This document shows, piece by piece, positions 4,999 to 59,050 of a DNA stretch of 64,000 bases. The notes beneath the pieces are model-generated. The model was not told the DNA's origin. It did no database searches and saw only the letters and a list, made by a program, of their open reading frames with translations. Source of the DNA: the human T2T-CHM13v2.0 reference genome, Homo sapiens. The position numbers and the translations under genes are program-made. Every line of letters begins with the position of its first letter. Position 1 is the first letter of the stretch. The stretch spans positions 41,440,001 through 41,504,000 of the forward strand of contig CP068257.2 in NCBI GenBank assembly GCA_009914755.4, written 5' to 3'.

Positions 4999-5545
<547 letters not shown>

Positions 5546-5738
5546 CCAGTGTTCTTCTGACATGAGCCCCATGAGCCCCCAGGCCAGGTTCTACCCACCA
5601 CGTGAGTCCCCTGGGCCCCAGGCCAGGCTCCACCCACCGCAGGTCAGGACACACCCTTCCCTGGCCCACCGGCTGAGCTCCTGAGGCACTCATGACTTCA
5701 GAGCCGGTGTGGGCATGAAATTCAAACCCGCTTACAGG

Positions 5739-6040
5739 GCCGGGCACAGTGGCTCACACCTGTGATCCCAGCGCTGTGGGAGGCCAAGGTGGGAGGATCA
5801 TTTAAGCCCGGAAGTCTGGGACCAGCCTGGGCAACATATTGAGACCCTGTCTCTACAGAATATTTTTAAAAATAAATTAGTCGAGCATGGTGGCACACGC
5901 TTGTGGTCCCAGCTACTTGGGAGACTGAGGCAGAAGGATCAGTTGAGCACAGCAGGTCGAGGCTGCAGCGAGCTATGATGGCACTACTGCACTCCAGTCG
6001 GCAACAGAGCAAGACCCTGTCTCTAAAAACAGACAAAAAC
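5739..6040 (+). mobile_element. Alu.
   Basis: gggccgggcacagtggctcacacctgtgatcccagcgctgtgggaggccaaggtgggagg...caacagagcaagaccctgtctctaaaaa. Confidence 0.9.
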
Positions 6041-7454
6041 CCCTTGCCACCATGGGCAGCACACAGCTTCCATCTCTGGCCTGATTCTGTCTTCACCCCT
6101 CCTGCTTTCTCCTGGCAAGCGTAGACCCGGTGTTAATGCTGGCCGAGGCTCCCATGCCACATACCCAGACAGGGCTGTTGTGATGGTTAATTTTAATACA
6201 GATTAACGGGGCCGTGGGAGCCCAGGCATTGGTCACACGTCGTTCTGGGCATGTGTGAGGGGATTCCGGATTAGCACAAGAGTCAAGAGGCAGATAACGT
6301 GTGCTACTGTGGAGGGCCTCACCCAAGCAGTTGAAGGCCTGAATAGAACCAAAGGTGGAATTTCCTGCCTTGGGGCTTGAACTGCTGGCTCTCCAGTCTC
6401 CGGCCTGCCGCCTCACCCTGCAGATCTCAGGGTTTGTCAGCCTCCGTGATCTCATGATCCAGTTCCTTAACACAGATCTCGTTCCCTCTCTCTCCCCGCT
6501 CCCCACACATCCTCTTGGTCCTGCGTCTCCACAGGACCCTACACCAGCTGTCATGAGGCACAGAGGGGTGAGCAAGGTGCGGGTGAGGAAGAGCCCTCGG
6601 AGCCCGTCCCAACTCCGCCACGGCTGTCACTCCTCTCTTTGTAGGCAGAGGTCCCTTGGGGTGGCCCACTTAGAGCCCCAGGAAAAGATAGGGAACACAG
6701 ATGAGATCAGCTCCTTGCATTTTGGGGAAACGGAGGCACAGCAACTGTTGGAGAAGGGAGCCCTGGGAGCCCTGAGTGCCGCAGGCTTCTGTGGCCCTGG
6801 CAGCTCGGCCCAGAGTCAATGGACTAGGGCCAGCCAGGGGACTTTCCGACAAGGGCCAGCTGGTGGTATTTTAGGTCTTGGGGGCCGTGCCGTCTCTGTT
6901 ATGAGCACGCAGCCCTGACGTGCTTGAAAGCAGCCACAGACGGTGGTGACAAGCGTGGACACGCTCCAGGAAGACTTGATTTGGGGACCCTGACATTGGA
7001 ATTTGCATCTTTTTTTTTTTCTGAGATGTTCAAACACAAGTAAATGTGAGATTAAGAGGGGGATCCCTCCTACCCAAGCTTGGGGGTGGGTCCAGGACCC
7101 TGGAAGGCCTCCATTTGCCATGGGGAGGCTGTGAATCTGAGCCTGAGAGCCATTCTGAGGGGTGGGTGATACCTACCTGCAGGCCCCCCCACCACGCCTG
7201 CCCAGGCCTGGTCCTGCGCTGCAGAGCCAAGGACGGGAGATGGGGTTAGACTTGGGGCCCTCACGGACCAGCCTCAGCCACCGAGCGCTCACCCCCTGCA
7301 CACAGGCCTGGTGGGTGGGCAGGCTCCAGGCTCCAGGGCCCCTCCCAACTCTTCCTGTGGGCCCCAGGCCCAGGGCTGCCATCTATGACCCAAAACCTGC
7401 GAGCGACTCTCCTGGCCTGTGGGGATGTGGTGGGGACGCCCGGGGATGCGCTCA

Positions 7455-8189
<735 letters not shown>

Positions 8190-8627
8190 TCACTCCTAGG
8201 TTTGGGCAGAACCCTCAGCCTTTCCAGTGTCAAGAGCCACACCTGCATGTCCCAGGGGATCCGTGTGGAAGGTCACACAAACTTTCCTGGGCCACCCTCA
8301 GGGCAGCAGAGGGTGGGTGTCTCAGGACAACCACGGAGTCTGACCAGCCCGGCAAGGAGCCACCGTGGGCTTCTCCCAGAATGTTCTAGCTCTTGTTGGA
8401 TAACCAAGTGCATGCACAGGCAAATGAGGCTGGGCAGGAGAAAGACCCCGGCAGACGCCGCATGGTGCCCGGGACAGCCTCTGAGCGCGAATGACCTCCT
8501 TAAGTCCCCAAAACACGGCTGGTGTGGATGAGCCTGCACTGATGAGAGCCTCCTCTCCGGCTGCTGCACTTGTAAAGTGGGTGCTTCTCAGCTTCATGGT
8601 TTGAGGGGTGCAGCCAGCTTCGGCCTA

Positions 8628-9410
<783 letters not shown>

Positions 9411-9783
9411 TCACCCCTCCCAGGACGGTGGGGCACACGCTCAGCTGCCCCAGGGAGGAGCGCTCTCTGGCCACACATGGAAGTCCTCTGCCACGAGCCT
9501 ACACGCGGCAGGAACCAGTCTGGGCCCTGGTGGGGAGAAAGAAACCAAGAGTCCTTGGACCCGTTCAGCCAGGGTCAAGGGTGACCAGCCGTCAGGTTTC
9601 CGCGACGTGGGGCTCTCAGTGGTCACTGGGCATGTGTGCCAAGGCTTTCTGCTGTCAGACATGTCCTCGGGGCATCTCTCCCCTGACCTCCAGGTGGGCC
9701 CAGGACAGCCTGCACACAAAGGGTGGGTGGGCTGAGGTCTGAGGGCCTGGAGTGAGCACGGCAGCCCTGCCCCAGGCTGCTCA

Positions 9784-10683
<900 letters not shown>

Positions 10684-11558
10684 TCACACACTCACACGCA
10701 CAGGTACACATGGCAGGCTGGCCAAGTATGTGGGGAGATGGTGTTCTTGCACTGACGGGGGTGGGCAGGAGCCCTGCACAGGGCATCTTGACCCTGGGCA
10801 CCAGATGTGAATCACCCCACACTGGGGAACCCAACTGGGGGCACCCACCAGCCAGGCCTGGCCCTCCAAGGGCAGCTGAGCTCTCGGGAGCTGTGTAGCC
10901 GCTGCAGCTTGCAGGCCATGGAGGAAACCCTGCAGGTGCAGGGGACAGGGCATGGGGGTCTGTAGACACCCGCCCTGGTACCGCCTCCGGAGACCAGGTG
11001 CAGAGCAGCGCCAGTCTCAGCCTGGCTGCCCGGTGACCAGCGAGGTCTGTGGCGTTACTGTCCGAGGGGCCTCTGGGCAAAACAGTCACAGCAAGTCCTA
11101 GGGGGCCACCTGGGCAGCACTCGGTCCCAATCTGGAGTTTGGGGGAAGCAGCAGAGGGAGTCAGGGTGGATAGGAGGTGGCACAGGGCCCGGCCCAAGAG
11201 GACGTCAGTCCATGTGGCCAGGGCTACCCGTTGGAGCTCACGGACCCCAGAGCAGTGAGGGGGACAGACACCAGAGAGGAAGGGACAGGAGGGACAGAGA
11301 GGGAGCCACCGTCTTTCATGCCCCTCCTGTCAGGGCTGTCACTGCGAGTGTGCATTGATTTTCACAGCATTAAGAGGCTGGGAAGCCCCACAGCGTGAGG
11401 GCACGTGGGCAGGAGAGTGGAGGCGGTGCTCACAGGGCCCCGCTGGCCTCCTCCCCTCCCAGTTCTGGCTGCCGGTTCTCAGGTGAGGCGTGAGAGGCAT
11501 CCAGGGAAGGGTGGCAGGATGGAGAGGAGCAGGGACCTGGGAGGGAAGCCGTGTCTTA

Positions 11559-11684
<126 letters not shown>

Positions 11685-12293
11685 TCAGACGCGCCAGGGT
11701 GAGCGTGCGTGGGTGCACACGTATGCATGAATTGTGCACGTGCACGCATGGGAGCATGTCAGACACACTCCGAAGGATCCGTCAAGAGGGGTTGCCTCGG
11801 GGAGAGGGGCTGGGAGGACCCCACTTCTCCGTGAGCATCGGCTTCTTCCTTGTGCACCATGGAGTTTCTGTGTCCACTCGGGGCTTCATAATGAGCTGGG
11901 GTGGGCACTGGTGCCAGGGAAATGCCTGCAGTGGGGCTGCGGCCCCTGGCAAACCTCCTGGCCCTGAGCCTAGAGCCAGCGATGCTACGAGGACGGAGCC
12001 CCCAGCACCACGCCTGCAGGCTGCCTGACTGCACACTGGGCTCTGCTTTATAAACAAGAGACCAAGGCTCACAGTGACACCAGCTGTCCCTAGGAGCCCT
12101 GAAGTCAGAGTCAGAGGCGTCTTCTCTGGGCTTAGTTTGAGGGTGCACACAGCAGTCGGGAAGGTCTAAGTCTGCAGTAGGAGCCCCCACAGGAAGAGAG
12201 GCACCCTCCTCTGTAACGGGGCCCATGGACCTGCTTTCCAGCCCCAAAGGCAGGGGCTTGTTTCTCCACCAACATGGGGAGCAGGGAGACTGA

Positions 12294-12802
<509 letters not shown>

Positions 12803-13241
12803 TGACACACGGAATGCACATGTAGAAACCTCACATGTCCCTGCCTGCGTTTTAGAAGCTGGTGTGTGCTCTCCGAGTCCCCAGAGGTCTAGATCAACTA
12901 TGGTCCCTACAGGGCCTCTGCTGCCTGTGTGGCTAGTCAGTGGCATTGCCAGCGGCCACCTGGTCTGTCCACCCCCAAGCAGGTGGGCAGAGGGGCACGG
13001 GGTAGGAGGAAGGTGAGCGGGGTCGAGCTGGACAGCCTCAGGCTCCAGTCCCCTCCCCAGCTGCTCCAGGGTGCTCGCAGCACCCAGTCCCGGCCATGGG
13101 CCCCGTCAATGCAGAGCCACCGCCCCAGGGGCCCTGGTGGACTTGATTAGAAACAATAAGTGCCATGAGAGCTTCAGCCTTGTTCTAGAAACACATTCTG
13201 GAAGGCAGCTCGAAGCCCCGCCCCATGGCCTCCTGCCCTCA

Positions 13242-13583
<342 letters not shown>

Positions 13584-13999
13584 TCATGGTGGACCCCGTG
13601 TCTAGGCGGTAGGACCCCAGAGGTCTCACCCCAGCCTCTCCCCCTGGGATCGGCACGTCTGCAGACTTTCCAGTTCCAACACGTTTTGCAGACAGCAAAA
13701 CTGCCCGCCAGCCCCACTGAGCATCCGTGTGACCCACACCGGCCCTTCGGTCTCTGCTCTCCCTCAGGCCAAAGTCAGCTTTTTGGCTCTTAACAGACTT
13801 TTCCGGGGCCTTAATTTTCACACGTTTTCCCTGCTCCCTGCCTGTGCCACCTGGGCTACATCCCTTGGTGAGGTCAGGCCACGTGTGCGGACATCGTCCC
13901 CCAGTCTACTTTGTCTCGACCTTCGAGACCAGCTTCTCACCATGCGTGCGGGGCTTGCCCTTCTGTTTCAGTGGAGAAGCTGGTTGGGGCCCAGGGTCA

Positions 14000-14221
<222 letters not shown>

Positions 14222-15018
14222 TCAAGGCCAGCAAAAGCCCCGCCTGGACATGCCTCGATATTCTATTATGGGAGTGGCCAATACCGCTGTTAACAACTGC
14301 CTGTTAATGATCTGCCTGTGGGTGGTGGCCTGTTCCCAGCCTCAGAGGCAGGATGAGAAACCCAAGAACCCAGGCTCCAAGTATTAAAGCGGTAATGACC
14401 TAAATGTTCAGTGCAGGGCGCTCAGAAGTAAAGGCAGGTGCCTGGGAGGAACTGACCTCCCCGGGGTGCTTCTCGGAGCGGGGCCCCCAGGACAGTCCAG
14501 ACAGACCACCCTGCGGCGGAGCAGCAGAGCCTTTGGGGACAAAGGGCATTGCTGGGCAGTGACGTCTTTTTCAAGGGCAAGCAACAGGGAGAGAACGCCC
14601 TTGTCTCATCAGCGGGACCTTTCTAGGCACCCGTCCTCAGACCTGCTCTTAACCCCGAGTCCAGGAACCCTCTCCCAACTCCCACAAGCCCCAGTTGAGG
14701 GGCAGACTCAGGACCAGAGGACTTAGAGCTCCTGGCTGATCCTCAGAGGCCCCCAGTTGGAACTCCGACCCCCCACTCAGTGCAGGAAGGTTCTCCAAGA
14801 CACTGGCCGGTGAGCGAGCACCCAGCCCCAGCTCCTTCGGGTCACGAGCTGCTGGTCCCTTATGTGTCAAGCACCCTTGTCTTCCCAAACACCTCCCAGG
14901 CAGCGCAGAAATACCGCGGGAGACAGCGTGCTGAGCAGACCGTGAGGAATGACAGCTTTCAGCTCAGAAGCCGGGGCCACTCCGCACTGCCCCTCTCCGG
15001 CCCGGCCACACCACTCAC

Positions 15019-15110
15019 CCTGCATCCAGGACACTTCTCCTTCAGCTTCCTGGCAATGCCCGTGATGGTGCCGCCCGTGCCCACTGAAGCCACCAGCATG
15101 TCCAGCTTCC
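15019..15110 (-). CDS. CBS: CBS coding exon 7 (aa 247-276).
   Basis: ccaccag|GG AAG CTG GAC ATG CTG GTG GCT TCA GTG GGC ACG GGC GGC ACC ATC ACG GGC ATT GCC AGG AAG CTG AAG GAG AAG TGT CCT GGA TGC AGG|gtgagtgg = [30 protein letters not shown]. Confidence 0.95.
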
Positions 15111-16301
15111 CTGGTGGACGGATAACATTCTTGGGTCCCTGCCTGGCCAGCCCATCACTCATAGTAATAATCATTGAAAACACACTCAGCCCAAACCACG
15201 GTGGGTAACCAAAAAGTTCAAAAGAAAAACTTCTTCTCCAGTTGGAGCAGCCCTCGTTGCTGCCCTTGGTCTGTGAAAGCCTCAGAAACAGGCAGCCTGG
15301 GGCACCCCAGCCCAGTCTTTGCTCAGTGACACTCGACCCCTAAAACCCCCATTTGGCTGGATGCAGAAAGACAGGACCCTGTCCGGGGGGTGCAGGCGCT
15401 GAGGGCGGGCAGAGGGAGGCTGTGAATTAACCACCTCCGTGGGCTGTTGGATGTTTGCGTGGTGTGAGTGAGTTAACTGAATTTACACAGGAAATGGAAT
15501 CAGTCTTTTAGGCTTCAGCGCAGAAACTCGCTGGGCGCTCACACTGCTGGCCGCCAGCGCGGGCATCTGGTGGAGAAGTCACAGCAGGGAAAGACTCAGC
15601 GAGACGGAGCAGCTTGGGCACCCATGCTGAGACAGGACTGTTTTTGCCAAATGAGAGAGTTCTCACACATAAAGCCCAAACAACCAAATGCCTGGACCTT
15701 ACAGCCCGGCTCCTGGGCACGGACTGAGGGTGTACTCCAGCCCATGCCAACACCGGATTCCCAATAGGAAGCCAGGGCGCCAACCTCTTGGCAACTTATC
15801 TCTAAAGGGATCTCTTGGGAAAACCTCAGTACCAACCCCCACAGGCCTTGGCACCGAGTCCCTGGAAAAGGGCCCAAGGAGCCGGCCTCATGCTTGTAAC
15901 AGAGAGTGAGCTCATCGCAGATGTCACCAGCTCTGTTCTGCAGATGAATTTGATGCCGAGTCAGGGCATGATCCCAAATGAAGTCCAAGCTGTGAGCCCA
16001 GCACCAGCCTGGGCCCTGAACAGACTCGCTGTCTGCATTATCTGCAGGAGGAGCCCCTGCAGACCTGCAGAGATTGCTGGGTAAACAAATACAGCCATGC
16101 CCTGTGTTTGCTATTACAGGTAAACCACAGGCGGAGGCCAAGAGGGCACAACGGAGGGAGGAAATTGTTCTAGAGAAATGCTCTAGAAAAGCATTTCACA
16201 GAGGGAACATTTGAGCTGGGTTCTGAAGGGTGAATAGGAGTTCACCAAGGAGAGGGCAAGAGATGTGTACACTCCCAGGCAGCCAGGGATAAATGCAATC
16301 A

Positions 16302-16439
<138 letters not shown>

Positions 16440-16505
16440 TCACCCCCACATCCCTGACCGAGACCCTCCTAGGGAATGCCTGTCTCCAGGCCCCAGGTGC
16501 CTCAC

Positions 16506-17761
<1,256 letters not shown>

Positions 17762-19627
17762 TCACTGGGGGGCGCCGCAGAAAACCCCGTCCCCCCACCC
17801 ACGAGCTGGGCTTGTGGCGGGCAGGCGCCTGGATTTGGGTCCCCTACGCCCCTATGCCCAGCCATACCCAGCGGCCCCTGCCAAAGCAGCTTGATGTCCT
17901 GAAGCCACAGCACTGGCTTCCCCATCGGATGGGGACTCGCATACTCTCCCTACAGCCTCCCATTGTCCTCCTTCCCCTGTGGGGCGTCACCTGCCCGGGG
18001 AAGGGCTCCCTGCGCAGTTCCCGCACAAGGCCAAGGCCTTCACTTGCACTTCCTTCCTTACTGCAAGTCCTCTCTCCCTCTCCAGCTCTTAAAAATATTT
18101 AGTTTTTAAGAGCGAGAGAATGGGCTGCATGAAATGTGATTTGAGGGACCTGGGACCAGCCTGCAGCACCTCAAAATTTCTGAAAGCAACCACCAGACAG
18201 GTGTTGCCCCTAGAACCAGGACGAGGCGCTGTGTGTGGTGGGGAGGACTCTCGGGGTCTGGCCCTCTACAGGCCTGCATTCTCGGACCCCTCTGGGTCCC
18301 ATACTGTGAAACCCTCAGTTAGATCATTCTCACTAGCGCCTGGGGGCCAGCTCCGAAGCAGAAATCAGAGCTGGTGGCCTCCGGCAAGCCACGTGACCAA
18401 CCTGACCCTCGGTGTGTCTGTCTGTAAAACGGGCATTCCAAAACCTACTTCAAGGGCAACCGCCAAGTTTAGACGTCATCCTGTACGGAGCACAGTGAGC
18501 CAGCCACGCGTGCTGCGTACGAGTTAAGGGTCCCTATTGTCTGACAAATGAGCACAGAGCCGGCCCTGCTGCCTTGGGGGTCTCTGTGAAGGGGGCTGCT
18601 CTGCTGCAGCTCCGAGATCTCCTTCCCTAGAGGGGGGCAGAGGAGGGCCAGGCTCCCACGAGGCCCCTCCTGTGAATCGGCGATCGGTTCCCAACGCACC
18701 GACCCCTGACTTCCTTCCCCCAGCGCCTGCCCCAGCTCTCACAGGTCCCCCGGCTGGGACATTAGAGCATCTCAGGATGAAAAAGTCCCAAGCCATGTTA
18801 CTGGTTCCCTCTCCTTCCCACTCGAACTCCACCCCCTCCATCTGGCCCTGTCGCGGGGTTCTCCGCGGCACCCTTCCTGCCTCCCTCCGAACTCACTTGA
18901 CCTTGGTCATCTGAAATACGAAATTCCGTCCCCGCCTTGTCCCCAAGGCCTCTGCACCCACAGCTTTCTCTGTGACGATGCTGAGGTCTACCAGGGCTCT
19001 GCGCTCTTGGTGAAGAGCGACCCTTAGGAATTCCCTCCACGCTCTTGAGCCTGGAAACTGCGTCCTGCAAAGAAATGCCCTTCCCCGGAGGCCTCAGACC
19101 ACACCTCAGGTGACCCCCTGCGCACCCAGGACGAGGCCAGCCACAGACCCTCCAAATTCCCATTCTCTGTCTCATAAATGATGAGCTGAACTATCTGTCC
19201 CCACGAAGCTGGCAAGACAGAGGTAACCGCTCCCTGGACAGCGGGTGGCTCACAGCACGTGCTAGGACCCGTCCACTGCTCCTTAGCAGGCATGACGCTA
19301 ACCCTCCCCACCTGCTTGCTTCTGCCTTTGACCCTCACCCGGCCCTTCACACCCTCGCTGCTTCCACTCCGGCCTCAGTTCAAAGGTCACCTGTTCGTTC
19401 CCTTGTCCATCTGCTGGGGAGTCACTTTGGTCACCCTCTGACACAATGCCCTGTTGTGTGTTTTTCCCAAACTTAAGCTGATATGTTCTTGGCCACTCAT
19501 TAACCAGCGAGTTTTCTGATCCCAGGGCCTTGCCTAAGGGATCCATCCCAGGACCCCCCAGGACCCCCCAGGCCCACGGAGCCCAGTGTAGATGGAGGAA
19601 GCCCCTCTCCAAAGCCAGGGCACTCAC

Positions 19628-19734
19628 AGAGCTCACACTTCAGGCCGAACTTCTTCCCAATCTTGTTGATTCTGACCATAGGGGTGTCCCCGATTTTCTT
19701 CAGAATATCTGGCAAGATTTTTGGAGATTTTGCC
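19628..19734 (-). CDS. CBS: CBS coding exon 2 (aa 71-105).
   Basis: ctgtttcag|G GCA AAA TCT CCA AAA ATC TTG CCA GAT ATT CTG AAG AAA ATC GGG GAC ACC CCT ATG GTC AGA ATC AAC AAG ATT GGG AAG AAG TTC GGC CTG AAG TGT GAG CTC T|gtgagtg = [35 protein letters not shown]. Confidence 0.95.
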
Positions 19735-21466
19735 CTGAAACAGAGGAGTCCACAATTATTCAGGAAAAAAAAAAAAAAATAGTACCAGCCCTGGCAGACA
19801 TTGTCTTACACAAATCAACACTCGAAGAACTGGAAAAAAAAAAAAAAAAAAAAAAGAACTGGCTTTATCTGGGTGGTGGTTACACAAATCTGTACACAGA
19901 TACACCTAACACACATCCCACACACACGCCTGAAACACACATACACACACATGCTTAGACATACAAATCTATAAAAAGCAAATCATGCCTGTGGTTTATT
20001 TGCACCAATGCCAGCTTCCCAGGTTTGAAAATGAACCTACAGTCGTGGCAGATGTTGTTAGTGGGAAGCTGGGAGAAGGGTACAAAGGATCTATTATTTT
20101 TGCCACTTATTGTGAGTAGTAAATTATTTCCAAATAAAAAAGTTAAAATAAGCAAATACTGACTCCAAAACAAAGGTTTAGGTCCACCTTTTCAGAAAGG
20201 CTTTACTGGAGATGACATTTCCTTTCATCTCTCAGCATGTGACCATAGGAAGCAAAAAAGTGTCAGGGCAGAGACTCCTTAGACCAGGGACAATGGCTGC
20301 AAAGCGCAGGCGGGATGTCTAGCCCTGCACAGAAAATGTCAGGCACGTGGCAGACTCAGAGCCCCGGCAGAGGCGCTGTCGGCCAGGCTCGTGATGCCCT
20401 GCCCTGCAGCATCTGGCTGTGTAAACCCTCAAACCCTGGTCCAGGTGGTTTCCTAAATGGCCCTCATGCCCCTGCCATCCTCCCCCAGGGAGATGCTGAT
20501 GACACCCCCTATCTATCTGCACCAAGCTCACCACATACTCATCTGGGAACACGCATGGCTTACAGCGGTCTCCAGACCCGCAACCCCTCCCTGGGCCTTG
20601 CAGCTCCGATGACACCCCGTGGCTAACCCTGGGCCCCCTCTTCAGCACAGTCACCTGCTGAACAGCCAGGGTCCTTGGGTCCTGCCCCCCAGGAGGCGAC
20701 CCTTAGACCTGGGGTGAACCCAGCTCCCAGAGGTCCTGTGCCATGGAGGGAGTGCCACATTTGCAGGGAGAGCTACCCTGAAGGCCAAAACAGGCGCCAA
20801 CAAGAGCAGCTGGAATCCAATCGCACCCTTCCCGGGGAGCAGAAGGCAGTCCTGCCAGGTCCCCAAACTGTACAGGGGCCAGGGAGGTTCCCTCAGAAGC
20901 AGTTCTCGGCAGAAGGGAACCAGGCTTGGCAGGTGTAGAGAGCCAGGGCCAGGTGGAAAGCCAAGCCCCAGGGTGACAGCGCCGGGGATTAGTTCATTAA
21001 TTCAGTTCGGGCATCTGGCCAGCCAGGCGGGAAGAGTCCCGCCTCCCTGCAGCAGGTGTGCTGACTCAGCACTGGGCCTCGGTGGCTGTGAAGTTACCTG
21101 AGAAGTTTGCAGAGGTGATCAGGGCCAGGCCCAGAGCGCTTAGCAAGAAAAAGGATGTGACTTGCAGGGATAGCCCTGGAGCCCCTTATCTCAAGGACTC
21201 CCACTTCCACAGCCCAAGAGTCTCCTGGGAGGACACGCCACTGTCCTAGAATGAACCTCCAACTCCTGACCCACCTCTGCAGCACCTCCCCGCAACGCCA
21301 CTATTCTCAGGGGCCCTCCGACTGGAGACAAGCGGCGTCGGCTCTGCGTCTCAGGATGGGGGTGTCTTCGGAGGATGAATGAGGCCAGTATGTGAGGTGC
21401 AGGTGCAACGCCATTTACAACCTGGAGGGCATCGTCTCCTTCTCATGCCCTAGAGTTAGGAGCTCA

Positions 21467-22073
<607 letters not shown>

Positions 22074-22477
22074 CTAAGAAGCACATTCTTTGATCTATTT
22101 GTTCTCCTCCAAGATTACACTAAGGAAATAAAGATAATCCTAAGGCTTAGTGAGCTTGATTTCAGTTTCATGCTGGGGTAGGGATTTTTGTTGATTTGTC
22201 TTTTCCACTGATAGATCTTCTGCGCCTTGAGCAGGGCACGAAATGCACATGGCGCTGAGGAAAGACTTGTTGGCTAAATGAATGTGTCGTATCTTCTATT
22301 GCAGTTATGTAAAATGAGGTAACTGCAAACATCTATCTACCCCGTAGAGGGCTTACAAAATGATGGCTTCTTCACCGAACAGTCTGTGCCACCAGAAAAA
22401 CAGCCCTTATGGAAAAATATGTAATGCCTACGGGAAGTCTTCATGACCTAGAGTTAACGGAAAAGTGCAGGCTGGGC

Positions 22478-22842
<365 letters not shown>

Positions 22843-23099
22843 TTATTTATTTATTCTGGAACTACTTGCTGAGCATCCACTGTCTTGCCAGGCACTGGCC
22901 TAGGCGCTGGGCTGCAGCGTAAGGAGGCCTTGGCCTCTCAGAGCCTCATCTACACGGCATGGCCCCACCCCCAGCTCCTCAATCCAGAGTGACTACAGGG
23001 GGTTACACCTCATGTCCTCCTGGCTGTGTGGTGTCCAGGTAACAAACTCCTGCCCTCCAGGTTATGGATCAGCCCTCTTGTGATCAAAAGCAGGACTTA

Positions 23100-23345
<246 letters not shown>

Positions 23346-31788: not shown

Positions 31789-32782
<994 letters not shown>

Positions 32783-46755: not shown

Positions 46756-46805
46756 CTCAAAAAACTCATCATAGTGTTCCTGCATCTCCACATCGCTCAC
46801 GGCAC
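46756..46805 (-). CDS. U2AF1: U2AF1 coding exon 4 (aa 68-83; completes Cys67).
   Basis: tttgcag|GT GCC GTG AGC GAT GTG GAG ATG CAG GAA CAC TAT GAT GAG TTT TTT GAG|gtgaga = (C)AVSDVEMQEHYDEFFE. Confidence 0.95.
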
Positions 46806-50989: not shown

Positions 50990-51292
50990 TTTTTTTTTTT
51001 TTTTTTTTTTTTGGAGACGGAGTCTCACTCTGTCGCCCAGGCTGGAGTGCAGCGGCACGATCTCAGTTCACTGCAACCTCCGCCTCCCGGGTTCAAGCGA
51101 TTCTCTGCCTCAGCCTCCCTAGAAGCTGGGATTGCAGGCATCTGCCACCACGCCCAGCTAATTTTTGTATCTTTAGTAGAGATGGGGTTTCACCATGTTG
51201 GCCAGATTGGTCTTGAACTCCTGACCTCATGATCCACCCGCCTCGGCCTCCCAAAGTGCTGGGATTACAGGCGTGAGCCACCGCGCCCGGCC
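50990..51292 (-). mobile_element. Alu (young-looking) in U2AF1 intron 3, ~230 bp downstream (transcript sense) of the exon 3 donor.
   Basis: polyT-ggagacggagtctcactctgtcgcccaggctggagtgcagcggcacgatctcagttcactgcaacctccgcctcccgggttcaagcgattctc...gggattacaggcgtgagccaccgcgcccggcc. Confidence 0.9.
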
Positions 51293-51523
51293 CAGCTCTA
51301 GACTGTTTTAAAGGGCACCCTTTCCAGTTACTTTTTCCCTTTTAACACACGGTGGGAGTTCAAATCTCCAAAAGAGGTTTCCATGGGGTCAGTGGGACGA
51401 AAGCTCCTTGCCACCTCTAGTGAAACGCGGTCCTTGACACTAGCACGGCAGACCAGATGGAGTGGACACTGAGCTCTGACACGCAAGCCCAGGGAACCGG
51501 GGAAGGAACTTGTATGAACTTAC

Positions 51524-51590
51524 AGCGCAAACCGTCAGCAGACTGGGAAGAGTTTTGAGGGTTACGGTAAATGTTCAAGAGGGCAATGGT
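51524..51590 (-). CDS. U2AF1: U2AF1 exon 3 (67 nt, aa 45-66). This is the constitutive U2AF35a member of the mutually exclusive exon pair.
   Basis: tatttcag|ACC ATT GCC CTC TTG AAC ATT TAC CGT AAC CCT CAA AAC TCT TCC CAG TCT GCT GAC GGT TTG CGC T|gtaagt = TIALLNIYRNPQNSSQSADGLR(C). Confidence 0.95.
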
Positions 51591-52436
51591 CTGAAATACA
51601 AAACGCAACAACTTTATATTATGGAAAATTAAAGGTAAACACTTAACCGGCTGCCTCTGGCAAGTGCTTCAGTTGAGATTCAGTGCTGAAAAGAGAGCAA
51701 GTTATTTTCTGGAGAAGCAGAGGCGTTTTCTCAGTTGGCGGCTGCCTTGAATCCCTAACACTGCGGTGTAACGGAGGTCTCATGATATGCCCATCTTGTA
51801 CTTCTGCTTACAGAACGTGAAAACTCTCCTTTTCAAAATTCCAATTCAGGTAAAAGCACAAATAGTTTGCCAGGCTAGCACCAAAATGTTCTTAGATGTG
51901 GCAGAAAATTTTTAATGAACTCGGAAAGAATAATGCTTACATAAACTGATGGAAAAAATTACTGTATTAGAGAAATACAATTGTTACATATCATGAAATC
52001 TCCACTTCCTGGAGGAAAAATTATAATGGTGAAATAAAACCCACACTTACTGGGCAACTTACCTTATTGATTCCTTAATATTCCTAAGAGTTTTAATTTT
52101 ACACAAAGAACTTAATAAAGGCCAGGGGTTCAGTCACTGTAAAGACCAATGAATGGCTCAAAATGTTGAAATCCGTTTCACATGGACGGACCTGCTCTCA
52201 TGACAAATGTCAATCAATGGAGGTGGCCGGGCCAGTGACCCTCCCTAGAAGGGATAAGCCTCCTGAACGTGGCCAAGTATCAAGTTCTTGCTGTGTGCGC
52301 CAAGGAGTTCCAGCACCTTGTCCTGTTTGCAACAGCTCTATGTCAGCAGCTCAGAAGCCAACATTATTTGTCTCAATTAAGAGTGGGCTCTTTAACACCA
52401 TTGTTTTAAAAAAATTTCTCCAACTGTGGGACTTAC

Positions 52437-52503
52437 AGTGTGAGCCGTCAGCCGTCTGTGCACTGTTTTGGGGATTACGATAGATGTTTTGAATCAAGAT
52501 GGT
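52437..52503 (-). CDS. U2AF1: U2AF1 alternative exon Ab (67 nt), mutually exclusive with exon 3. It encodes the U2AF35b variant TILIQNIYRNPQNSAQTADGSH(C).
   Basis: tttttttttccccgcag|ACC ATC TTG ATT CAA AAC ATC TAT CGT AAT CCC CAA AAC AGT GCA CAG ACG GCT GAC GGC TCA CAC T|gtaagt. It has the same length and phase as exon 3 with ~70% nucleotide identity, lies 846 bp upstream of exon 3 in transcript sense, and has a strong polypyrimidine tract. Confidence 0.9.
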
Positions 52504-55385
52504 CTGCGGGGAAAAAAAAATAAAAAGGGGAATTCTACTGGCTGCTGTGCATATATTAGACAATTGCAAAGAGACAATTTGTTTGCAAATGGCTAAACGT
52601 TTGTTTTTTTCCCGCAAGTCAGACATTTGTCTTCTGAAGAGTACACCAAAACCATCATATTATGAAAACAGAGTTTGAGCAGTGACTTGGGTCAAGTCAG
52701 CCAGCAACCAAGAAGAAACTGTATTGTTTTGATTAGTCCCACGTTTTCAATGTTAAAGTGTTTTAATGCAAGATAAATAGTAGAATACTAATATTTTCTT
52801 GTACTTCAAGCTAGCAGACACCAAGATGTGGAAAAATTCACGTTATAATCATATTCCTCACACAAGATAATTTTTCAAAACCAAATGCGTAACTCAGCTG
52901 TCTGCAGTACATCAAGTTCTCTGGTCTCCTAGCAAAACAGGCACACCAAACAGGTCTGTCAACTGTCATGGACACCCGGCTCTGATTTACACTTTCTTGG
53001 TGGGATCTCTGTTTACATAATACAATAGCTTAAAACATTTGCTCTTTTCCGATCCTTCTTTTAAGGAAAAAAAATCCTTTTAGCCCTTGTGCTTTAAACT
53101 GGATCAGGCAGACTTGAAACCTTACACTGTACCGTTCTTCTTAAAATCAAGTTGTCTGAAAAAACAAACCATGTTTAAGTTAGTAGGCTAATATATTACA
53201 TGAATCTTAACGTCCATATCACTGTAAGCAGCTTATAAAGAAACCCACCCTGAATTATGCTAGAGATTTACAAGCTAAAGCAATCACTCGCATGATTTAG
53301 AAAAATAAATGTTTAGTCTCAACAATATCCACGTGAAGCAGTTTTGTAAGTGGTGGTTTTATAAAACCAGCCAGCTCCATTTCTAGCTCTGTTTAAAGGG
53401 GAGTGGTTGTATGAAGAGTTCCTCAGTCAAAGGTGTGCAGCTGGGAAGCCCACCCCACCTAAGAGGGAGGTCTGACAAACTGTCCACACTGAACCACTCA
53501 GACCTGCATCAGGGCCCCGTTTCTTCCATAAGCCGCCAAGTACAGCCCTGAGTCAACTGAACTCAGGCCTGGGAGGCTTCCCAAAGCTGACTTGACTCAG
53601 CTTTGAACTGAAATGACCGTACCATGACAACCCTGATGAAAAGCTAAACTGAGCCCAATTATTCAACAGTAAAATTCAGTTGGTCTCACTCAGGTATTCT
53701 GGCAGTGGCTATTTAATGAAGGAAGCTTAACGTAAAGAGGCAATGCAGTCTAATGGGAAAGCCAAGGGTGGCTAGGATTGCCTAAAACCAACCAAAACAA
53801 ACCCACGCATCAAACTAGGATGCTTAAGCTGACACATACTACTGACCCCATCGAGCTCCAATGGGCTCTCCCCAGCACTGACCTGGAATGCCTAAATTAA
53901 CTTCACATTTCACATTCTCAGGTAATCTATGATCCAGAAAAACATAAAGAAAGTGCCTCCAGCCAGATTAAAGAAAACTTTTAGAATAGGGAACAGTTGA
54001 TTTCTCTCAGCCCAACACTTGGGACACCCCCCAAAATCAAAGAACTGGGTGGTCACTTAAGATGCTTGGTTATACCACAATCCATGGCCACTGGTTTAGT
54101 TAGGGGAGATTCGGTTCATAAATCAAAACATTAAAGAAAAAACAATTGCAATACACAGAAAATGTAAAGCTAGTTCTCCAAGATTTTGAAATTTGTAAAA
54201 AGAAACTCATGTTCAGAGCTATCAAAAGACAGACTGCTATTATACTAACCACTTGGTAATTAGCATAATGGAGGGAAAAGCCATCATCCTCTTCCCTTCT
54301 AAAAACACTGTGTGCTGTGGGGTCGTCCATGGGCTTCAACCGGAAAAAACCCATGTTTCCTTCTCCCAGCTCACTTACACAAAGTGGTAGATTTTCTTAA
54401 ATGCTTACAGGAAAACGTATACAGACAGATGTGAGCTCAAAGGCAGAGCCTGGCAGCTCCCAGGGACCACGCATAATAGCTACTCAACAGCTCAGAGGCT
54501 GCACATTTAGACTTCAAGGGTGGGTTGGAAGGAGTTCCCCAGCCCTCCATCTGGAAAGACTTGGGCATCGATTTTCAAATTTCAAATGTTCTCATCAACG
54601 TGGGCACAAGTTTTCTGCTCCGATTAGAGGTGCCTTCTCCCTTTAATCCGTAAGTGATCCTTTATAGTGTACCAACCTTTGCCTTTTCTTCAACTAACCA
54701 AAAATAAAACTATCAAAACTCACAACTTTTGATTGAACTGAACTCAGAGCGGATCTAAGCCCAAGATAACAGGCACTCCTCAATTAACCAAACAGACCCG
54801 CTAAGAGCAATTTACGGCCCATTTTCTACCTTTCAGCTTAATTTTTCATGTTTCCATGACGTGATGCGACTCGCTGTTTCCTCAGCTAGGGATGTGAAAG
54901 TGAGGACGCAGCCAGAGAAGCTCGAGCAGCATGATGGGCCTGGTGACAATCACGCTAACTTGGAAGATGGCTCCATCACCTCTACTGTCTGGAGACAGCA
55001 AAGAGCAGAAAGCCCACTCCGTGTCCACTGGTGCCTGGAGGAGGCTAACCCAAGGCTGGCACGGCCACCCCCTCTGGACCCATGTCTATCAGAGGGGGTA
55101 GGGAAGATGGCAGGGCAGCAAATATCAGGCACAGCCAACACACAAACATCAAAAACTGATTTTTAAAGTTTCTCTAATGATAAAAACAAGGAGTGGTGGT
55201 CTCAGACCTTCCACTGGAAGTCGATCACCTGCCTCACTATTATTTAAATAAAAGAACACACTTATGAACACAAATGGAAAATACAACTACGAGAGAAAAA
55301 ATGACTTGCTTAATATGTAGAAATTAACTGTCTTTGAAAAGAACATGAAGTTTTTATAATTTACATGAAAAAAAGGCAAACAAAC

Positions 55386-55473
55386 CTGGCTAAACGTCGG
55401 TTTATTGTGCAACCGAGAGCACCTGTCTCCATGACGACATGCTCCAATTTTGAAATAAAATGAACAGTTGACT
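55386..55473 (-). CDS. U2AF1: U2AF1 coding exon 2 (aa 16-44; completes Lys15), the first CCCH zinc finger. The S34 codon TCT lies at 55418-55416.
   Basis: cttacag|A GTC AAC TGT TCA TTT TAT TTC AAA ATT GGA GCA TGT CGT CAT GGA GAC AGG TGC TCT CGG TTG CAC AAT AAA CCG ACG TTT AGC CAG|gtttgt = [29 protein letters not shown]. Confidence 0.95.
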
Positions 55474-58099
55474 CTGTAAGGGAAAATGAGAGCTGATTAT
55501 TTTGCTGGGAAGATATCAAACACATGGAATATGTCAGCAGCATGACATACACTATCAAATTACTTTTAACCTCACAGAAACATGACACAGACTTTTTTCC
55601 GTGGTATTAAGCACCTCCTCTTCCTTGCTGTATTTTAGGACAACGTAACTTCAACTTCCCTTTCTGCAAACACACTACTTGTTCAGCAAAGACGGTTCTA
55701 ACTCTAACCCGCCTCCTCCTCATTCAAATCCCCTCCACTTTCCTAACTGCACAGCTGTTCTGTTTGTTTCTTAAATGGAGTATTAAATTAGTCTAAAACT
55801 AAATGTAACTTAGGCAGTATCTGTTCTCCAGTTCTCCACGACCAAGTTCTCTCTTGAAAAGACCGGTGTGGTGAGGGTTAAGATCCCAACTCTGCTACCA
55901 GCTGCTTGGGCTTGGGCAAGTCACCCTAGCTCTCAGATGTCATCTGTAAATGATGACAATGCCAATGTGGCACTGTTCTGAGAGTCAGACAGAACGTATG
56001 TGTGCTTCACATATGGTGCTCATGAAGTGCTATCATTATCTAAGGAAAACAGAAAACGAAGTTCAGAGTCTCTCTAAACGCATGACACCAGACCAACAGG
56101 GAGTTTCAAAAAATAGGTCTGAAGTAAATCAATTCTCCTGGTCTCAATACACTGAAAACAAACTATTAGGGGACTGACCAAACCCACCTTAGGAACCACC
56201 TTACGTCACCTTCTGTCTCTACTGCAAAACCCTCCCTTAATACTGTTCAAATACGCTGACAATCCAGATCCATATCCAATGGAACCAGCAATCATGCCTG
56301 TGTGCCAGCAATGTCAGGGAGGGAAGCCGATCTCTGATGAATTAGGACATCTTACCAGACAGACTTTGTTCAAAATTCAATTTTTTTTTAACCAAGTGCC
56401 ATTATGTTTTAAACAGTCAATCCAGAGTTAAGATTGAAGGGCCTCAACCTCAGTGAAATCTGATGGACCATGAAGACTGACTAGCCACTGATTTATTATC
56501 AGGTAGCAATAAAGATGGGAAAGTCCAAATTTATCAGGAGAGGAAAGTGATTATATATATTTGCAAACTTACAGGTCTTGAGATTATTTAACTTGATTAG
56601 ACAATAGCATATCTTTAGGAAGTCATCTAAAAATAAAGAAAGCTTATTTAAAAACTACCTCAGAATGGGCAAGCCCTGGGCCTCAACAATTAATATCCAA
56701 TTATTCCACACAATTAAACTACAGACAAGCTATTAGGATATCCCTGAATCTAGAAAACATCTATAACTTCAAACATATAATAAGCTAAACATTTTTTAAT
56801 TGGTAGAGATCTATATTTTATTCTTAGCTTAAATAATAATTAAAGTTAATATGAACCATCAGCTTCATTTTTCAGGAGTTGATCCTGTTCCCTGGAAGCT
56901 AAAACCCCACGTCTCCCTGAAAAGAAAACACAAGTAACCTAGATTAAATAATCAACTTTTCTGAATTAAAACCATGACCTTTATAGTATAGCCCAATAGA
57001 TTGAAATGTGGTTGCTTATAGCAGAAATATAGGGAGATAGACTTTTACAAGACAGAAGTCATGCCACATGCAAATATGAAAAGGAGAAATTAATGATGCC
57101 CCGATCCTACATGTGTTAGTTCTTCACCCTAAACTCAGAAGAGTCTCTTGTTCCGATAGAGCTGGTCTATTCATTCGCCAAGATCATACCGTGAGTTCCT
57201 TAAGGATAATATCCAAATTTTACCCATGTTTAAGTCTCCAGAAACTGACCTATAGTTGACCCCCACTAAATGTTTCTGGAGTGACTATAACTGGTAGATT
57301 TTGGCTTAAAATTTTGCTAGAAATATAGCCTCCTCATCCAAACAACACAGGAGATTCTACCATGTGTGAAGAGGACATTTTACAAGATAGACTCCATCCT
57401 GGAAAAGAGAAACATTTTAAATAGCGTTTGAAAAAAGTGGCATTAAAAACATCTATGACAAACTTAGGGGTTTATCATTGAAAACATAAAGTCATGTTAA
57501 CTTTGTATGGCACTGAAGAATGCCAAGATAACTAAAGAGTAGATTAAGCCAGATGCTGAGTCTTTAGGTTTTCAAAGTAAGAATTATCCTTCAAACGTCT
57601 GAAAACATTCCATTTAGTCTAAACTACAGCCAACTCACTGGAAATTAGTACGTGCCAAGGTGGCAATTAAAGCTGAAATTAAATGTTTTGCTTTTAACCT
57701 AACGATTGATTAGGGAAGGCATGCAACCTTAAGGAAAAAATCAAAACATCTTTTTCCTTATATCAGAATTGTGTCTTCAAGAACAGTCACCGACTTACAA
57801 ATTTTCAACTTAGATGATGGGTTTATCGGGGTATTAAAGGCATTTTCGATTCATGATGGGTTTATCGGAACGCAATCCCATGGTAAATCCAGGAGCACCT
57901 GTATGTTAAGAGCGGATCACGTCTCTTGTGGTTAGATAGTTAATCCAGTAGTCTCCACCATACTTTTTCTCGTCATATCTCCTTACTGCCGGCCCAGCGG
58001 TCGCTTAAACAGGCAAGAGGCTGGCTAAGTGGATAAAACACCAACGCTTAGGACCCTAAGTTAGATAAGCGACTGAATACTGGCGAGGCTGGTACCAGA

Positions 58100-59050
58100 G
58101 CTTGCTCGACAGGACATTCACAGCCGAAAGTTGGAACAAACGTGTCCACGTCCAAAAGGCCCGGATGCTCCAGGCAACTTTCAGCGCGGCTCGAGGCGGC
58201 TTCCGGGAGCCGGCGACTCGGAGGCCCGGACGTCGGGCGATCAGCCAGTTCGGACCCCAAGGCCGGAGAAAGCTCGGCCGCGGCGCCCCGAAAAGAGACC
58301 CCATTCATTCTCCCCGCTCCATTTTTCCGCCGCGCGGCCCACGAGGCGGCGGCTCCGGAGGGCGCGCAAGGGGCCGGAAGGGCCACCGCTCCTTCCCGCC
58401 GCGCGCCCCTCCCCCGCCACCGCCGCGCCGGCCCGCCTGGGCCTCCCCGGTCGCCCTCCCACCGCCTCAACCACCCTGCGCCCCGATCGCGCCCAACCCC
58501 CGGCGGGGGGCTCCCACTCACTTGTCTTTCTCGGTGCCGAAGATGGAGGCCAGATACTCCGCCATTTCCCACCCGCCGCCGCCGCTGCCGTCGACACTGC
58601 TGCCGACGCCGCCGACCCTGCCGACGCCCGCGGGAGACGTCACCCGGACGCGACGACGCTCTTCCCCGCCCCGACGTGGCAGCGCTACCCAGTCAGGCGA
58701 GGTGCTGCCTGCGCGTGGGCGGGACGCATGCGCGTAGGGAGCACGTAGTGCGCGTGGGAGGCTCCGCCTTTTCGGTCCTGGGAACCCGCGCCCCCTGCCG
58801 GTGCCCTCCCCGCCCGGCCCTAGCTCTCTCGCCTTCTCGCCCGCCCGGCGCTGGCCCTGCTGGATCCTGCGCGCCGGGGACTGGGGGCTGGCAGTGCAGA
58901 CCGAACCCGGGGCCGAGGGGCTTCTCCACAGAGCCGCCTGGGGCTCGGTGGGGGGCGCTCAGCTCGACCCCAGCTAAGGGAGCACTAGGAAGTGCGGGCG
59001 TCCCCTTCCCTGCACCCTTGCGGGGCGGGAACCGTCGACCTAGAAGAAAA
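58100..59050 (-). promoter_or_regulatory. U2AF1: U2AF1 TATA-less CpG-island promoter and 5' UTR. It carries a CRE/ATF site (gacgtca, 58636-58642), an Sp1 GC box (ccccgcccc, ~58674-58682) and an NRF1-like cgcatgcgcg (58725-58734). The TSS is expected ~58.60-58.65 kb.
   Basis: CpG-dense sequence surrounds the exon 1 ATG. The motifs were read directly on the plus strand upstream (in gene sense) of the ATG. Confidence 0.6.
58522..58565 (-). CDS. U2AF1: U2AF1 coding exon 1, with the ATG at 58565-58563 (aa 1-14 plus 2 nt).
   Basis: ATG GCG GAG TAT CTG GCC TCC ATC TTC GGC ACC GAG AAA GAC AA|gtgagtggg = [14 protein letters not shown](K). Confidence 0.95.

What the first reader, a model, noticed from the sequence alone, without database searches (positions are those of the whole stretch)
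51524..52503. U2AF1 mutually exclusive exon pair Ab/3: two in-phase 67-nt paralogous exons 846 bp apart
Both exons begin ACC AT and end ...C(A/G)C T|gtaagt, and each is 67 nt long. They encode TILIQNIYRNPQNSAQTADGSH versus TIALLNIYRNPQNSSQSADGLR. Including both or neither shifts the frame by 67 nt and creates a premature stop, which is the classic tandem-exon-duplication AS-NMD autoregulatory arrangement. Exon Ab has an unusually long pure polypyrimidine tract (ttttattttttttttccccgcag). The surrounding ~6 kb is Alu-free, consistent with conserved intronic regulatory sequence.
Basis: partly seen in the sequence, partly recalled or inferred. Interest (0 to 1): 0.5.

Follow-up and report, generated by a model that had tools for sequence, protein, structure and literature searches.

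The report
Known U2AF1 exon Ab/3 pair

Summary
On the minus strand lie two 67-nt exons, Ab (52503..52437) and 3 (51590..51524). Both are AG...GTAAGT-bounded, they are 846 nt apart, and they share 44/67 nt and 15/22 aa. The whole U2AF1 coding sequence is in the window. Splicing 2-3-4 or 2-Ab-4 gives 240-aa proteins differing at 7 residues. Ab+3 gives a stop in exon 3, and skipping both gives a stop in exon 4. Both stops lie more than 350 nt upstream of the last junction.

Both exons are present in vole, alligator, birds and sharks, with an intervening intron of 766-939 nt. Exon 3 is 67/67 nt identical from human to bird, and the flanking intron blocks are conserved. Amphioxus has one 67-nt exon.

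All of this is published: the Ab/3 pair and NMD of the double-inclusion isoform, the weak branch-point cluster, long polypyrimidine tract and ESL hairpin upstream of Ab, and mTOR control.

- The tract contains one A.
- An Alu lies 231 nt from exon 3's donor.
- NMD-coupled autoregulation is not demonstrated.

One small addition: outgroups show that the minor exon Ab keeps the ancestral coding state and exon 3 is derived.

The parts
52437..52503 (-). U2AF1 exon Ab (67 nt, phase 0 start). It encodes TILIQNIYRNPQNSAQTADGSH plus the first base of the next codon, and is used in isoform U2AF35b.
   Evidence: The peptide is 22/22 identical in vole, alligator, birds and sharks. Named in PMC5224494.
51524..51590 (-). 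U2AF1 exon 3 (67 nt, same phase). It encodes TIALLNIYRNPQNSSQSADGLR and is used in the major isoform U2AF35a.
   Evidence: It is 67/67 nt identical in vole, alligator and two birds.
51591..52436 (-). Intron between exons Ab and 3 (846 nt), GTAAGT...CAG, free of Alu.
   Evidence: The orthologous intron is 766 nt in vole, 878 in alligator, 811 and 823 in birds and 939 in sharks.
52508..52532 (-). [quoted passage not shown]
   Evidence: Described as a repressive long PPT in PMC5224494.
52533..52543 (-). Branch-point cluster of exon Ab (-30 to -40, cagcagccagtagaa region), with adenines at -30, -31, -33, -36 and -40 and no U at BP-2.
   Evidence: Sequence. It is 100% conserved in tetrapods. The branch points were mapped experimentally in PMC5224494.
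52564..52588 (-). ESL hairpin (-61 to -85 of exon Ab): TTGCAAACAAATTGTCTCTTTGCAA.
   Evidence: Exact match to the reverse-complement sequence printed in PMC5224494. It folds as a 6-bp stem at -3.5 kcal/mol, z = -1.0. The stems are invariant in tetrapods and a loop position varies A/C/G.
53004..53203 (-). Distal conserved intronic block about 500-700 nt upstream of exon Ab.
   Evidence: 94-100% identical to vole and 72-96% to alligator and bird. It corresponds to the '~500 nt upstream' conservation peak of PMC5224494.
52304..52436 (-). Conserved block downstream of exon Ab's 5' splice site. It contains a third TTGCAA palindrome (52327-52332), 104 nt into the intron.
   Evidence: 76-96% identical to alligator and bird. 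TTGCAA sits at the same offset in vole, alligator and birds and is absent in sharks.
51591..51653 (-). Branch-point and short interrupted pyrimidine tract region upstream of exon 3 (published branch points at -25 and -27 = 51615 and 51617).
   Evidence: The last 30 nt are identical in human, vole, alligator and birds. Branch points are from PMC5224494.
55386..55473 (-). U2AF1 exon 2 (88 nt), the constitutive upstream partner. It ends in phase 0 with ...TTTAGCCAG.
   Evidence: The published human RT-PCR primer U2AF35_F matches its 3' end exactly.
46756..46805 (-). U2AF1 exon 4 (50 nt), the constitutive downstream partner. TGA at 46799..46797 is read when both alternative exons are skipped.
51562..51564 (-). 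Premature TAA read in exon 3 when exon Ab is also included (isoform c).
   Evidence: The NMD sensitivity of isoform c is shown by UPF1 knock-down in PMC3091714.
51007..51292 (-). Alu element in intron 3, 231 nt downstream of exon 3's donor. It marks the edge of the conserved, Alu-free zone.
   Evidence: Human-vole identity falls to 0.36-0.50 from here on.

Best explanation
The two 67-nt segments are exons Ab and 3 of the human-type U2AF1 gene (minus strand). They arose as a tandem exon duplication in an early vertebrate. Each encodes residues 45-66 at the start of the U2AF homology motif.

Because 67 is not a multiple of 3, only mRNAs with exactly one of the two exons keep the reading frame. 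These encode U2AF35a with exon 3 and U2AF35b with exon Ab, which differ at 7 residues. mRNAs with both exons (isoform c) or neither (isoform s) hit a premature stop far upstream of the last junction and are removed by nonsense-mediated decay. So at the level of stable mRNA the exons behave as mutually exclusive.

Which exon is chosen is set by ordinary splicing regulation, not by a steric or spliceosome-type block. Exon Ab is held down by a cluster of weak branch points next to its long pyrimidine tract. It is tuned by the conserved ESL hairpin at -61 to -85 and by U2AF, PUF60, hnRNP C, SRSF3 and FUBP1/2.

Shown here: the anatomy, the frames, the stops, deep conservation of exons and flanking intron blocks, and the single-exon outgroup. 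Taken from the literature: NMD sensitivity, the branch points, ESL function and the trans-acting factors.
For: - Anatomy and frame consequences.
- The full U2AF1 CDS is in the window, 100% identical to the human U2AF35a sequence as I remember it.
- Published human primers and the published ESL sequence match exactly.
- CBS lies downstream, as on human 21q22.3.
- The similarity is far beyond chance.
- Both isoform types are annotated in many vertebrates: 31 Ab-type and 45 exon-3-type among the 120 best homologues.
- Both exons, 67 nt each with AG/GTAAGT, are present in vole, alligator, two birds and two sharks. There is a single 67-nt exon in amphioxus.
- Exon 3 is 67/67 nt identical from human to bird, and intron blocks are conserved.
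- Literature: PMC5224494, PMC4402522, PMC3091714, where UPF1 knock-down raises isoform c, and PMC6821156.
Against: Nothing contradicts the core reading.
- No RNA-seq or junction data could be examined here, so usage and NMD rest on published work.
- The ESL fold is not significant on thermodynamics alone (z = -1.0).
- The ESL shows no compensatory changes in my small alignment, because its stems are invariant.
Confidence: 0.96

Rival explanations
1. The pair is primarily a homeostatic autoregulatory switch. Excess U2AF35 would drive its own pre-mRNA into the unproductive Ab+3 or skipped isoforms, which NMD removes, as with the poison exons of SR proteins.
For: - The PTC-bearing isoforms exist and are NMD targets (PMC3091714).
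- Exon and flank ultraconservation resembles that of SR-protein poison cassettes.
Against: - What is reported is a shift of the a/b ratio, not an increase of unproductive isoforms with rising U2AF35.
- The terms autoregulation, feedback and homeostasis do not occur in PMC5224494 or PMC4402522.
- Both productive isoforms are conserved at the protein level for about 450 My, so the pair is not merely a decay switch.
Confidence: 0.25
2. Mutual exclusivity is enforced by competing RNA base-pairing (docking and selector sites, or looping-out of exon Ab), as in insect Dscam or 14-3-3 zeta.
For: - Conserved intronic blocks lie upstream of both exons.
- PMC5224494 reports long inverted repeats between these blocks.
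- I found a third TTGCAA palindrome 104 nt downstream of exon Ab, conserved in position in tetrapods. It could pair with either ESL arm.
Against: - The authors deleted and swapped the inverted-repeat stems and saw no change in exon inclusion.
- The inverted repeats found here (I1-I7) are short, 73-92% complementary, and mostly in poorly conserved sequence.
- Double-inclusion mRNA is readily made once NMD is blocked or in minigenes, so there is no strict structural exclusion.
- Sharks have the exon pair but none of the TTGCAA elements.
Confidence: 0.1
3. Exon Ab is a non-functional leftover or pure poison exon, and U2AF35b is splicing noise.
For: Exon Ab is the minor form and is actively repressed (PMC5224494).
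Against: - The Ab peptide is 22/22 identical from shark to human, and 64/67 nt are identical.
- Teleosts that lost the alternative splicing kept an Ab-type paralogue (PMC1808492).
- Isoform-specific targets and interactomes are published (PMC4402522, PMC6821156).
Confidence: 0.02
4. Exclusivity arises from steric hindrance (branch point too close to the upstream donor) or from U2/U12 splice-site incompatibility.
For: These are two of the recognised mechanisms for mutually exclusive exons (established knowledge; listed in PMC5224494).
Against: - The intron is 846 nt, and exon 3's mapped branch points are at -25 and -27, about 820 nt from exon Ab's donor.
- Both exons have identical U2-type GTAAGT donors and YAG acceptors.
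Confidence: 0.01

Closest known systems
U2AF1 exons Ab and 3 themselves (Pacheco et al. 2004, J Biol Chem 279:27039; Kralovicova & Vorechovsky 2017, PMC5224494)
   Same: Everything matches: 67-nt tandem exons, 7 amino-acid differences, PTC isoforms c and s, the long PPT, the branch-point cluster at -30 to -40, and the ESL at -61 to -85, whose published sequence matches window 52564-52588 exactly.
   Different: Nothing in the locus differs. My only addition is the outgroup polarity: exon Ab carries the ancestral coding state, whereas the 2017 discussion tentatively suggested that Ab 'came second'.
Other U2AF-regulated tandem homologous exon pairs (TPM1/TPM2 6a/6b, FYN 7a/7b, OGDH 4a/4b)
   Same: These are duplicated equal-phase exons, one repressed through its BP/PPT organisation, with tissue-specific choice (PMC5224494; PMC7969005).
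   Different: In OGDH, exclusivity is enforced by distant branch points near the upstream 5' splice site. In alpha-tropomyosin exons 2/3 it is enforced by steric hindrance. In U2AF1 neither applies, and the frame/NMD filter plus regulated repression does the work.
Ultraconserved poison-exon cassettes of SR and hnRNP genes (Lareau 2007 and Ni 2007; cited from memory)
   Same: A splicing-factor gene with extreme nucleotide conservation of an alternative region, including synonymous sites and intron flanks, and an NMD-targeted isoform.
   Different: In those cassettes the alternative exon itself carries the stop, and the protein promotes its inclusion (negative feedback). Here each exon is coding, the stop arises only from double inclusion or double skipping, and feedback through NMD is not demonstrated.
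Docking/selector RNA-structure systems of insect mutually exclusive exons (Dscam exon 6, 14-3-3 zeta)
   Same: Tandem duplicated exons with conserved intronic elements and inverted repeats upstream of the variants.
   Different: Published stem deletions and swaps in U2AF1 had no effect. No covariation support was found here.

Membership tests
Tandem-duplicated mutually exclusive exons filtered by reading frame and NMD | Two adjacent homologous exons of equal length and equal phase | tested here: met
   67 nt each, both start in phase 0, 44/67 nt and 15/22 aa identical. The similarity is beyond chance.
Tandem-duplicated mutually exclusive exons filtered by reading frame and NMD | Exon length is not a multiple of 3, so double inclusion or double skipping gives a PTC more than 50-55 nt upstream of the last exon junction | tested here: met
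   67 mod 3 = 1. The PTCs lie 417 nt (Ab+3) and 370 nt (skip) upstream of the last junction.
Tandem-duplicated mutually exclusive exons filtered by reading frame and NMD | Both single-inclusion isoforms are expressed | tested here: met
   Indirect. Both isoform types are annotated in many vertebrates in the protein collection. Direct RNA and protein evidence is published (PMC4402522, PMC5224494, PMC6821156). No reads were examined here.
Tandem-duplicated mutually exclusive exons filtered by reading frame and NMD | The double-inclusion isoform is stabilised when NMD is inhibited | not testable with these tools
   Published: UPF1 knock-down enriches U2AF35c (PMC3091714).
Autoregulatory AS-NMD (poison-cassette) loops of splicing factors | Extreme conservation of the alternative region, including synonymous sites and intron flanks | tested here: met
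   Exon 3 is 67/67 nt and exon Ab 66-67/67 nt identical between human and vole, alligator and bird. Flanks are 76-100% identical.
Autoregulatory AS-NMD (poison-cassette) loops of splicing factors | The gene's own protein increases the unproductive isoform (negative feedback) | not testable with these tools
   The literature read shows only that U2AF depletion shifts the a/b ratio. There is no mention of feedback or autoregulation.
Docking/selector RNA-structure mutually exclusive splicing | Conserved complementary intronic elements with covariation, whose disruption abolishes exclusivity | tested here: inconclusive
   Only short imperfect inverted repeats were found. The ESL stems are invariant, so there is no covariation signal. 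Published stem deletions had no effect.
Steric-hindrance mutually exclusive exons | The downstream exon's branch point lies too close (under about 60 nt) to the upstream exon's 5' splice site | tested here: not met
   The intron is 846 nt and the branch points are at -25 and -27 of exon 3.
U2/U12 spliceosome-incompatibility mutually exclusive exons | One flanking intron has U12-type splice sites | tested here: not met
   Both donors are GTAAGT and both acceptors are YAG with pyrimidine tracts.

The most novel reading that the evidence does not exclude
The repressed minor exon Ab, not the dominant exon 3, preserves the pre-duplication coding sequence. The main vertebrate U2AF35a isoform would then be the derived form, and U2AF35b the ancestral-type protein kept at low level. 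This reverses the tentative suggestion in the 2017 paper that exon Ab 'came second'.

A weaker add-on: a third, tetrapod-conserved TTGCAA palindrome 104 nt downstream of exon Ab may compete with the ESL arms and loop out the exon.
Probability: 0.7. Interest if true: 0.2.

Novelty: already known. Interest (0 to 1): 0.08.

Why it matters
U2AF1 is an essential 3' splice-site recognition factor and a recurrent target of mutation in myeloid neoplasia. The Ab/3 switch yields two isoforms with partly different targets and is controlled by mTOR.

As a scan result, the finding mainly shows that the first-stage reader can recognise a real, functionally important exon duplication from raw sequence. It adds nothing to what has been published since 2004.

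The only incremental point is the polarity of the duplication: exon Ab is ancestral-like and exon 3 derived. This bears on how a duplicated exon copy takes over as the major form.

Tried and rejected
- RNA.duplexfold between the 750 nt upstream of exon Ab and the whole intron Ab, in five species. It returned one meaningless global duplex per species and was discarded.
- ESL thermodynamics alone is unremarkable (z = -1.0). The alignment has no compensatory changes. So I could neither support nor contradict the published hairpin independently.
- Exact look-up of the two human isoform sequences in the 15-billion-protein collection. Neither is held, which is uninformative.
- Pacheco et al. 2004 is not in the library, so it is cited only through papers that cite it.
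It was rerun on the plus strand.
- The Rfam scan of 51000-53500 at E<=1 found only Alu-derived hits. There is no known RNA family in the exon pair region.
- ORFs on either strand of 51300-52800 are short, unremarkable intronic ORFs.
- Chance similarity, steric hindrance and U2/U12 incompatibility were considered and rejected on the sequence.

Full report
**What is in the sequence.** The feature lies on the minus strand.
- Exon Ab is window 52503..52437 and exon 3 is 51590..51524, each exactly 67 nt.
- Each is preceded by AG and followed by GTAAGT. They are separated by an 846-nt intron.
The other frames of each exon contain stops.
- They share 44/67 nt in register and 15/22 residues.
- No shuffle of exon 3 out of 200,000 reached 44 matches (maximum 36).
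- Among all 67-mer pairs 200-3000 nt apart in the window, the only ones with at least 44/67 identity outside Alus are a 31-bp VNTR and this pair.
- The repeat finder independently reports the pair as family D1.

**The gene.** tblastn with the human U2AF35a sequence as I remember it (UniProt Q01081) finds all coding exons on the minus strand between 58565 and 44162.

| Exon | Window coordinates (minus strand) |
|---|---|
| 1 (from ATG) | 58565-58522 |
| 2 | 55473-55386 |
| Ab | 52503-52437 |
| 3 | 51590-51524 |
| 4 | 46805-46756 |
| 5 | 46598-46500 |
| 6 | 45848-45715 |
| 7 | 45623-45531 |
| 8 (to stop) | 44309-44162 |

With these GT-AG boundaries, the four possible splice products behave as follows:
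- 2-3-4 gives a 240-aa protein identical to that remembered sequence.
- 2-Ab-4 gives a 240-aa protein differing at 7 residues (47, 48, 49, 59, 61, 65, 66).
- 2-Ab-3-4 stops at codon 76 (TAA at 51564..51562), 417 nt upstream of the last exon junction.
- 2-4 stops at codon 47 (TGA at 46799..46797), 370 nt upstream of it.

Both stops satisfy the usual 50-55 nt rule for NMD (established knowledge).

The encoded region is the start of the U2AF homology motif. It falls inside the solved human fragment 1JMT, residues 43-146. Pfam finds the two CCCH zinc fingers and the RRM-like core.

**Origin of the window.** Four observations point to the human, or a very close primate, 21q22.3 CBS-U2AF1 region:
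- The window holds 42 Alu-like intervals.
- The CBS coding exons lie downstream on the same strand, 23309..5002, with CBS's 31-bp VNTR at 8735-9287.
- Published human RT-PCR primers for this very splicing event match exons 2 and 6 exactly.
- The published reverse complement of the ESL hairpin matches 52564-52588 exactly.

**It is already described.** The literature held here states the following:
- U2AF1 makes U2AF35a and U2AF35b from tandem 67-nt exons 3 and Ab. These arose by duplication and are conserved in vertebrates.
- Transcripts with both or neither exon carry stop codons and are down-regulated by NMD (PMC5224494 introduction; PMC4402522).
- UPF1 knock-down enriches the double-inclusion isoform, to the point that it is used as a routine NMD control (PMC3091714).

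Kralovicova & Vorechovsky mapped four weak branch-point adenines at -30 to -40 of exon Ab, next to its long pyrimidine tract. They showed that this BP/PPT unit represses the exon. They also showed that an EvoFold hairpin (ESL, -61 to -85) bound by FUBP1/2 tunes inclusion, with U2AF, PUF60, hnRNP C and SRSF3 as regulators.

The window has these elements at 52533-52543 (branch points), 52508-52532 (tract) and 52564-52588 (ESL). mTOR-dependent control and isoform-specific functions are also published (PMC6821156).

I fetched orthologous loci through homologous proteins.
- Vole, alligator, two birds and two sharks all have both exons: 67 nt each, AG/GTAAGT-bounded, Ab first.
- The intervening intron is 766, 878, 811/823 and 939/939 nt respectively, against 846 nt in the window.
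- Exon 3 is 67/67 nt identical in human, vole, alligator and birds. Exon Ab is 66-67/67 identical. So synonymous sites are frozen.
- Human versus shark is 64/67 for Ab and 57/67 for exon 3.

A five-species alignment of about 2.2 kb shows the conserved intron blocks:

| Block (window coordinates) | Position | Identity to human |
|---|---|---|
| 52604-52504 | upstream of Ab (ESL, branch points, tract) | 82-100% in amniotes |
| 53203-53004 | 500-700 nt upstream of Ab | 72-100% |
| 52436-52304 | downstream of Ab's donor | 76-96% |
| 51653-51591 | upstream of exon 3 | 78-94% |
| 51503-51454 | downstream of exon 3 | 84-92% |

This matches the two conservation peaks described in PMC5224494.

**How exclusivity works.**
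- Steric hindrance is excluded. The intron is 846 nt and exon 3's branch points are at -25 and -27.
- U2/U12 incompatibility is excluded. The two donors are identical U2-type sites.
- A docking/selector structure is not supported. The inverted repeats I find are short and imperfect. The ESL stems are invariant, so they give no covariation. The authors' stem deletions and swaps had no effect.
- Double-inclusion RNA is abundant from NMD-immune minigenes and after UPF1 depletion.

The best-supported mechanism is therefore regulated repression and activation of each exon, plus removal of out-of-frame products by NMD.

The word 'autoregulatory' is only partly justified. U2AF depletion shifts the a/b ratio. 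An NMD-coupled negative feedback is not reported in the papers I read.

- The tract is cccctttttatttttttttccccgcag.
- The Alu-free zone is 51293-61605 (10.3 kb). However, an Alu at 51007-51292 lies 231 nt from exon 3's donor (Rfam SRP-type hits). Conservation collapses exactly there.

**Evolutionary polarity, a small addition.** Amphioxus has a single 67-nt exon with the same boundaries. It is 54/67 nt identical to human exon Ab but only 41/67 to exon 3.

At the 7 residues that distinguish the isoforms, 20 invertebrate orthologues carry the Ab state 94 times, the exon-3 state 22 times and neither 24 times. Fission-yeast U2AF23 also has TIL at the start of this segment.

So the minor, repressed exon Ab keeps the ancestral coding state, and the major exon 3 is the derived copy. 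It also changed more between shark and human. The 2017 discussion tentatively suggested from intron conservation that exon Ab 'came second'. I could not check whether Pacheco 2004 addressed this.

**Teleosts.** Labrid loci have only an exon-3-type exon. A Colossoma 'U2AF35-like' paralogue has an intact Ab-type exon plus a decayed 3-like exon whose GTAAGT donor is shifted. This agrees with the published fugu case of isoforms replaced by paralogues (PMC1808492).

**Verdict.** This is a correct reading of a well-known locus. The novelty class is 'already known' and interest is low.

Noticed in passing
window 52437-52503 vs 51524-51590; L006:9982-10048: Outgroup polarity. The single amphioxus exon and 20 invertebrate orthologues match exon Ab far better than exon 3 (54 vs 41 of 67 nt; 94 vs 22 diagnostic-residue states). 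The minor exon Ab is therefore ancestral-like and the major exon 3 derived. This is opposite to a tentative remark in PMC5224494.
   Followed up: partly
window 52327-52332 (with 52564-52569 and 52583-52588): Three TTGCAA palindromes flank exon Ab. Two form the ESL stem. The third lies 104 nt into the downstream intron, at the same offset in vole, alligator and birds, and is absent in sharks. It could pair with either ESL arm and loop out exon Ab. This is a post-hoc observation and is untested.
   Followed up: partly
window 51591-52436; L009, L010, L001, L002, L004, L005: The intron between exons Ab and 3 keeps a narrow length (766-939 nt) from sharks to human and is free of Alu. By contrast the whole gene spans about 11-14 kb in vole, birds and the window, but about 45-93 kb in the shark loci.
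   Followed up: partly
window 8735-9287: A 31-bp tandem repeat with 17.8 copies and 92% matches overlaps the end of a CBS coding exon (9261-9371, minus strand). This is the known CBS 31-bp VNTR (recalled from memory).
   Followed up: partly
window 5002-23309 (-): The cystathionine beta-synthase (CBS) coding exons lie downstream of U2AF1 on the same strand. The neighbourhood is conserved: CBS follows U2AF1 in alligator (L010), and an HSP20/crystallin-type gene flanks it in shark (L005).
   Followed up: partly
L003:7822-7888 (Colossoma U2AF35-like paralogue): This teleost paralogue has an intact Ab-type exon and a 3-like exon whose GTAAGT donor sits 7 nt early, giving 60 nt. Used alone it would break the frame, but together with Ab it would stay in frame. 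It is probably a decaying exon copy.
   Followed up: no
proteins P0004, P0039, P0040, P0043: Some automated gene models (Albula, Apodemus, Chloebia, Varanus) contain both the Ab and the exon-3 peptides in tandem. These are almost certainly mis-predictions that force the frame through both exons.
   Followed up: no
window 32354-32501 (-): The only Rfam gathering-level hit in the window is Metazoa_SRP at 72 bits, inside an Alu-rich stretch. It is an Alu, not an SRP RNA gene.
   Followed up: partly
window 26001-28000 and 58001-60000: Two GC-rich segments (0.71 and 0.60 GC) look like CpG islands. The second overlaps U2AF1 exon 1. The first lies upstream of the first CBS coding exon.
   Followed up: no
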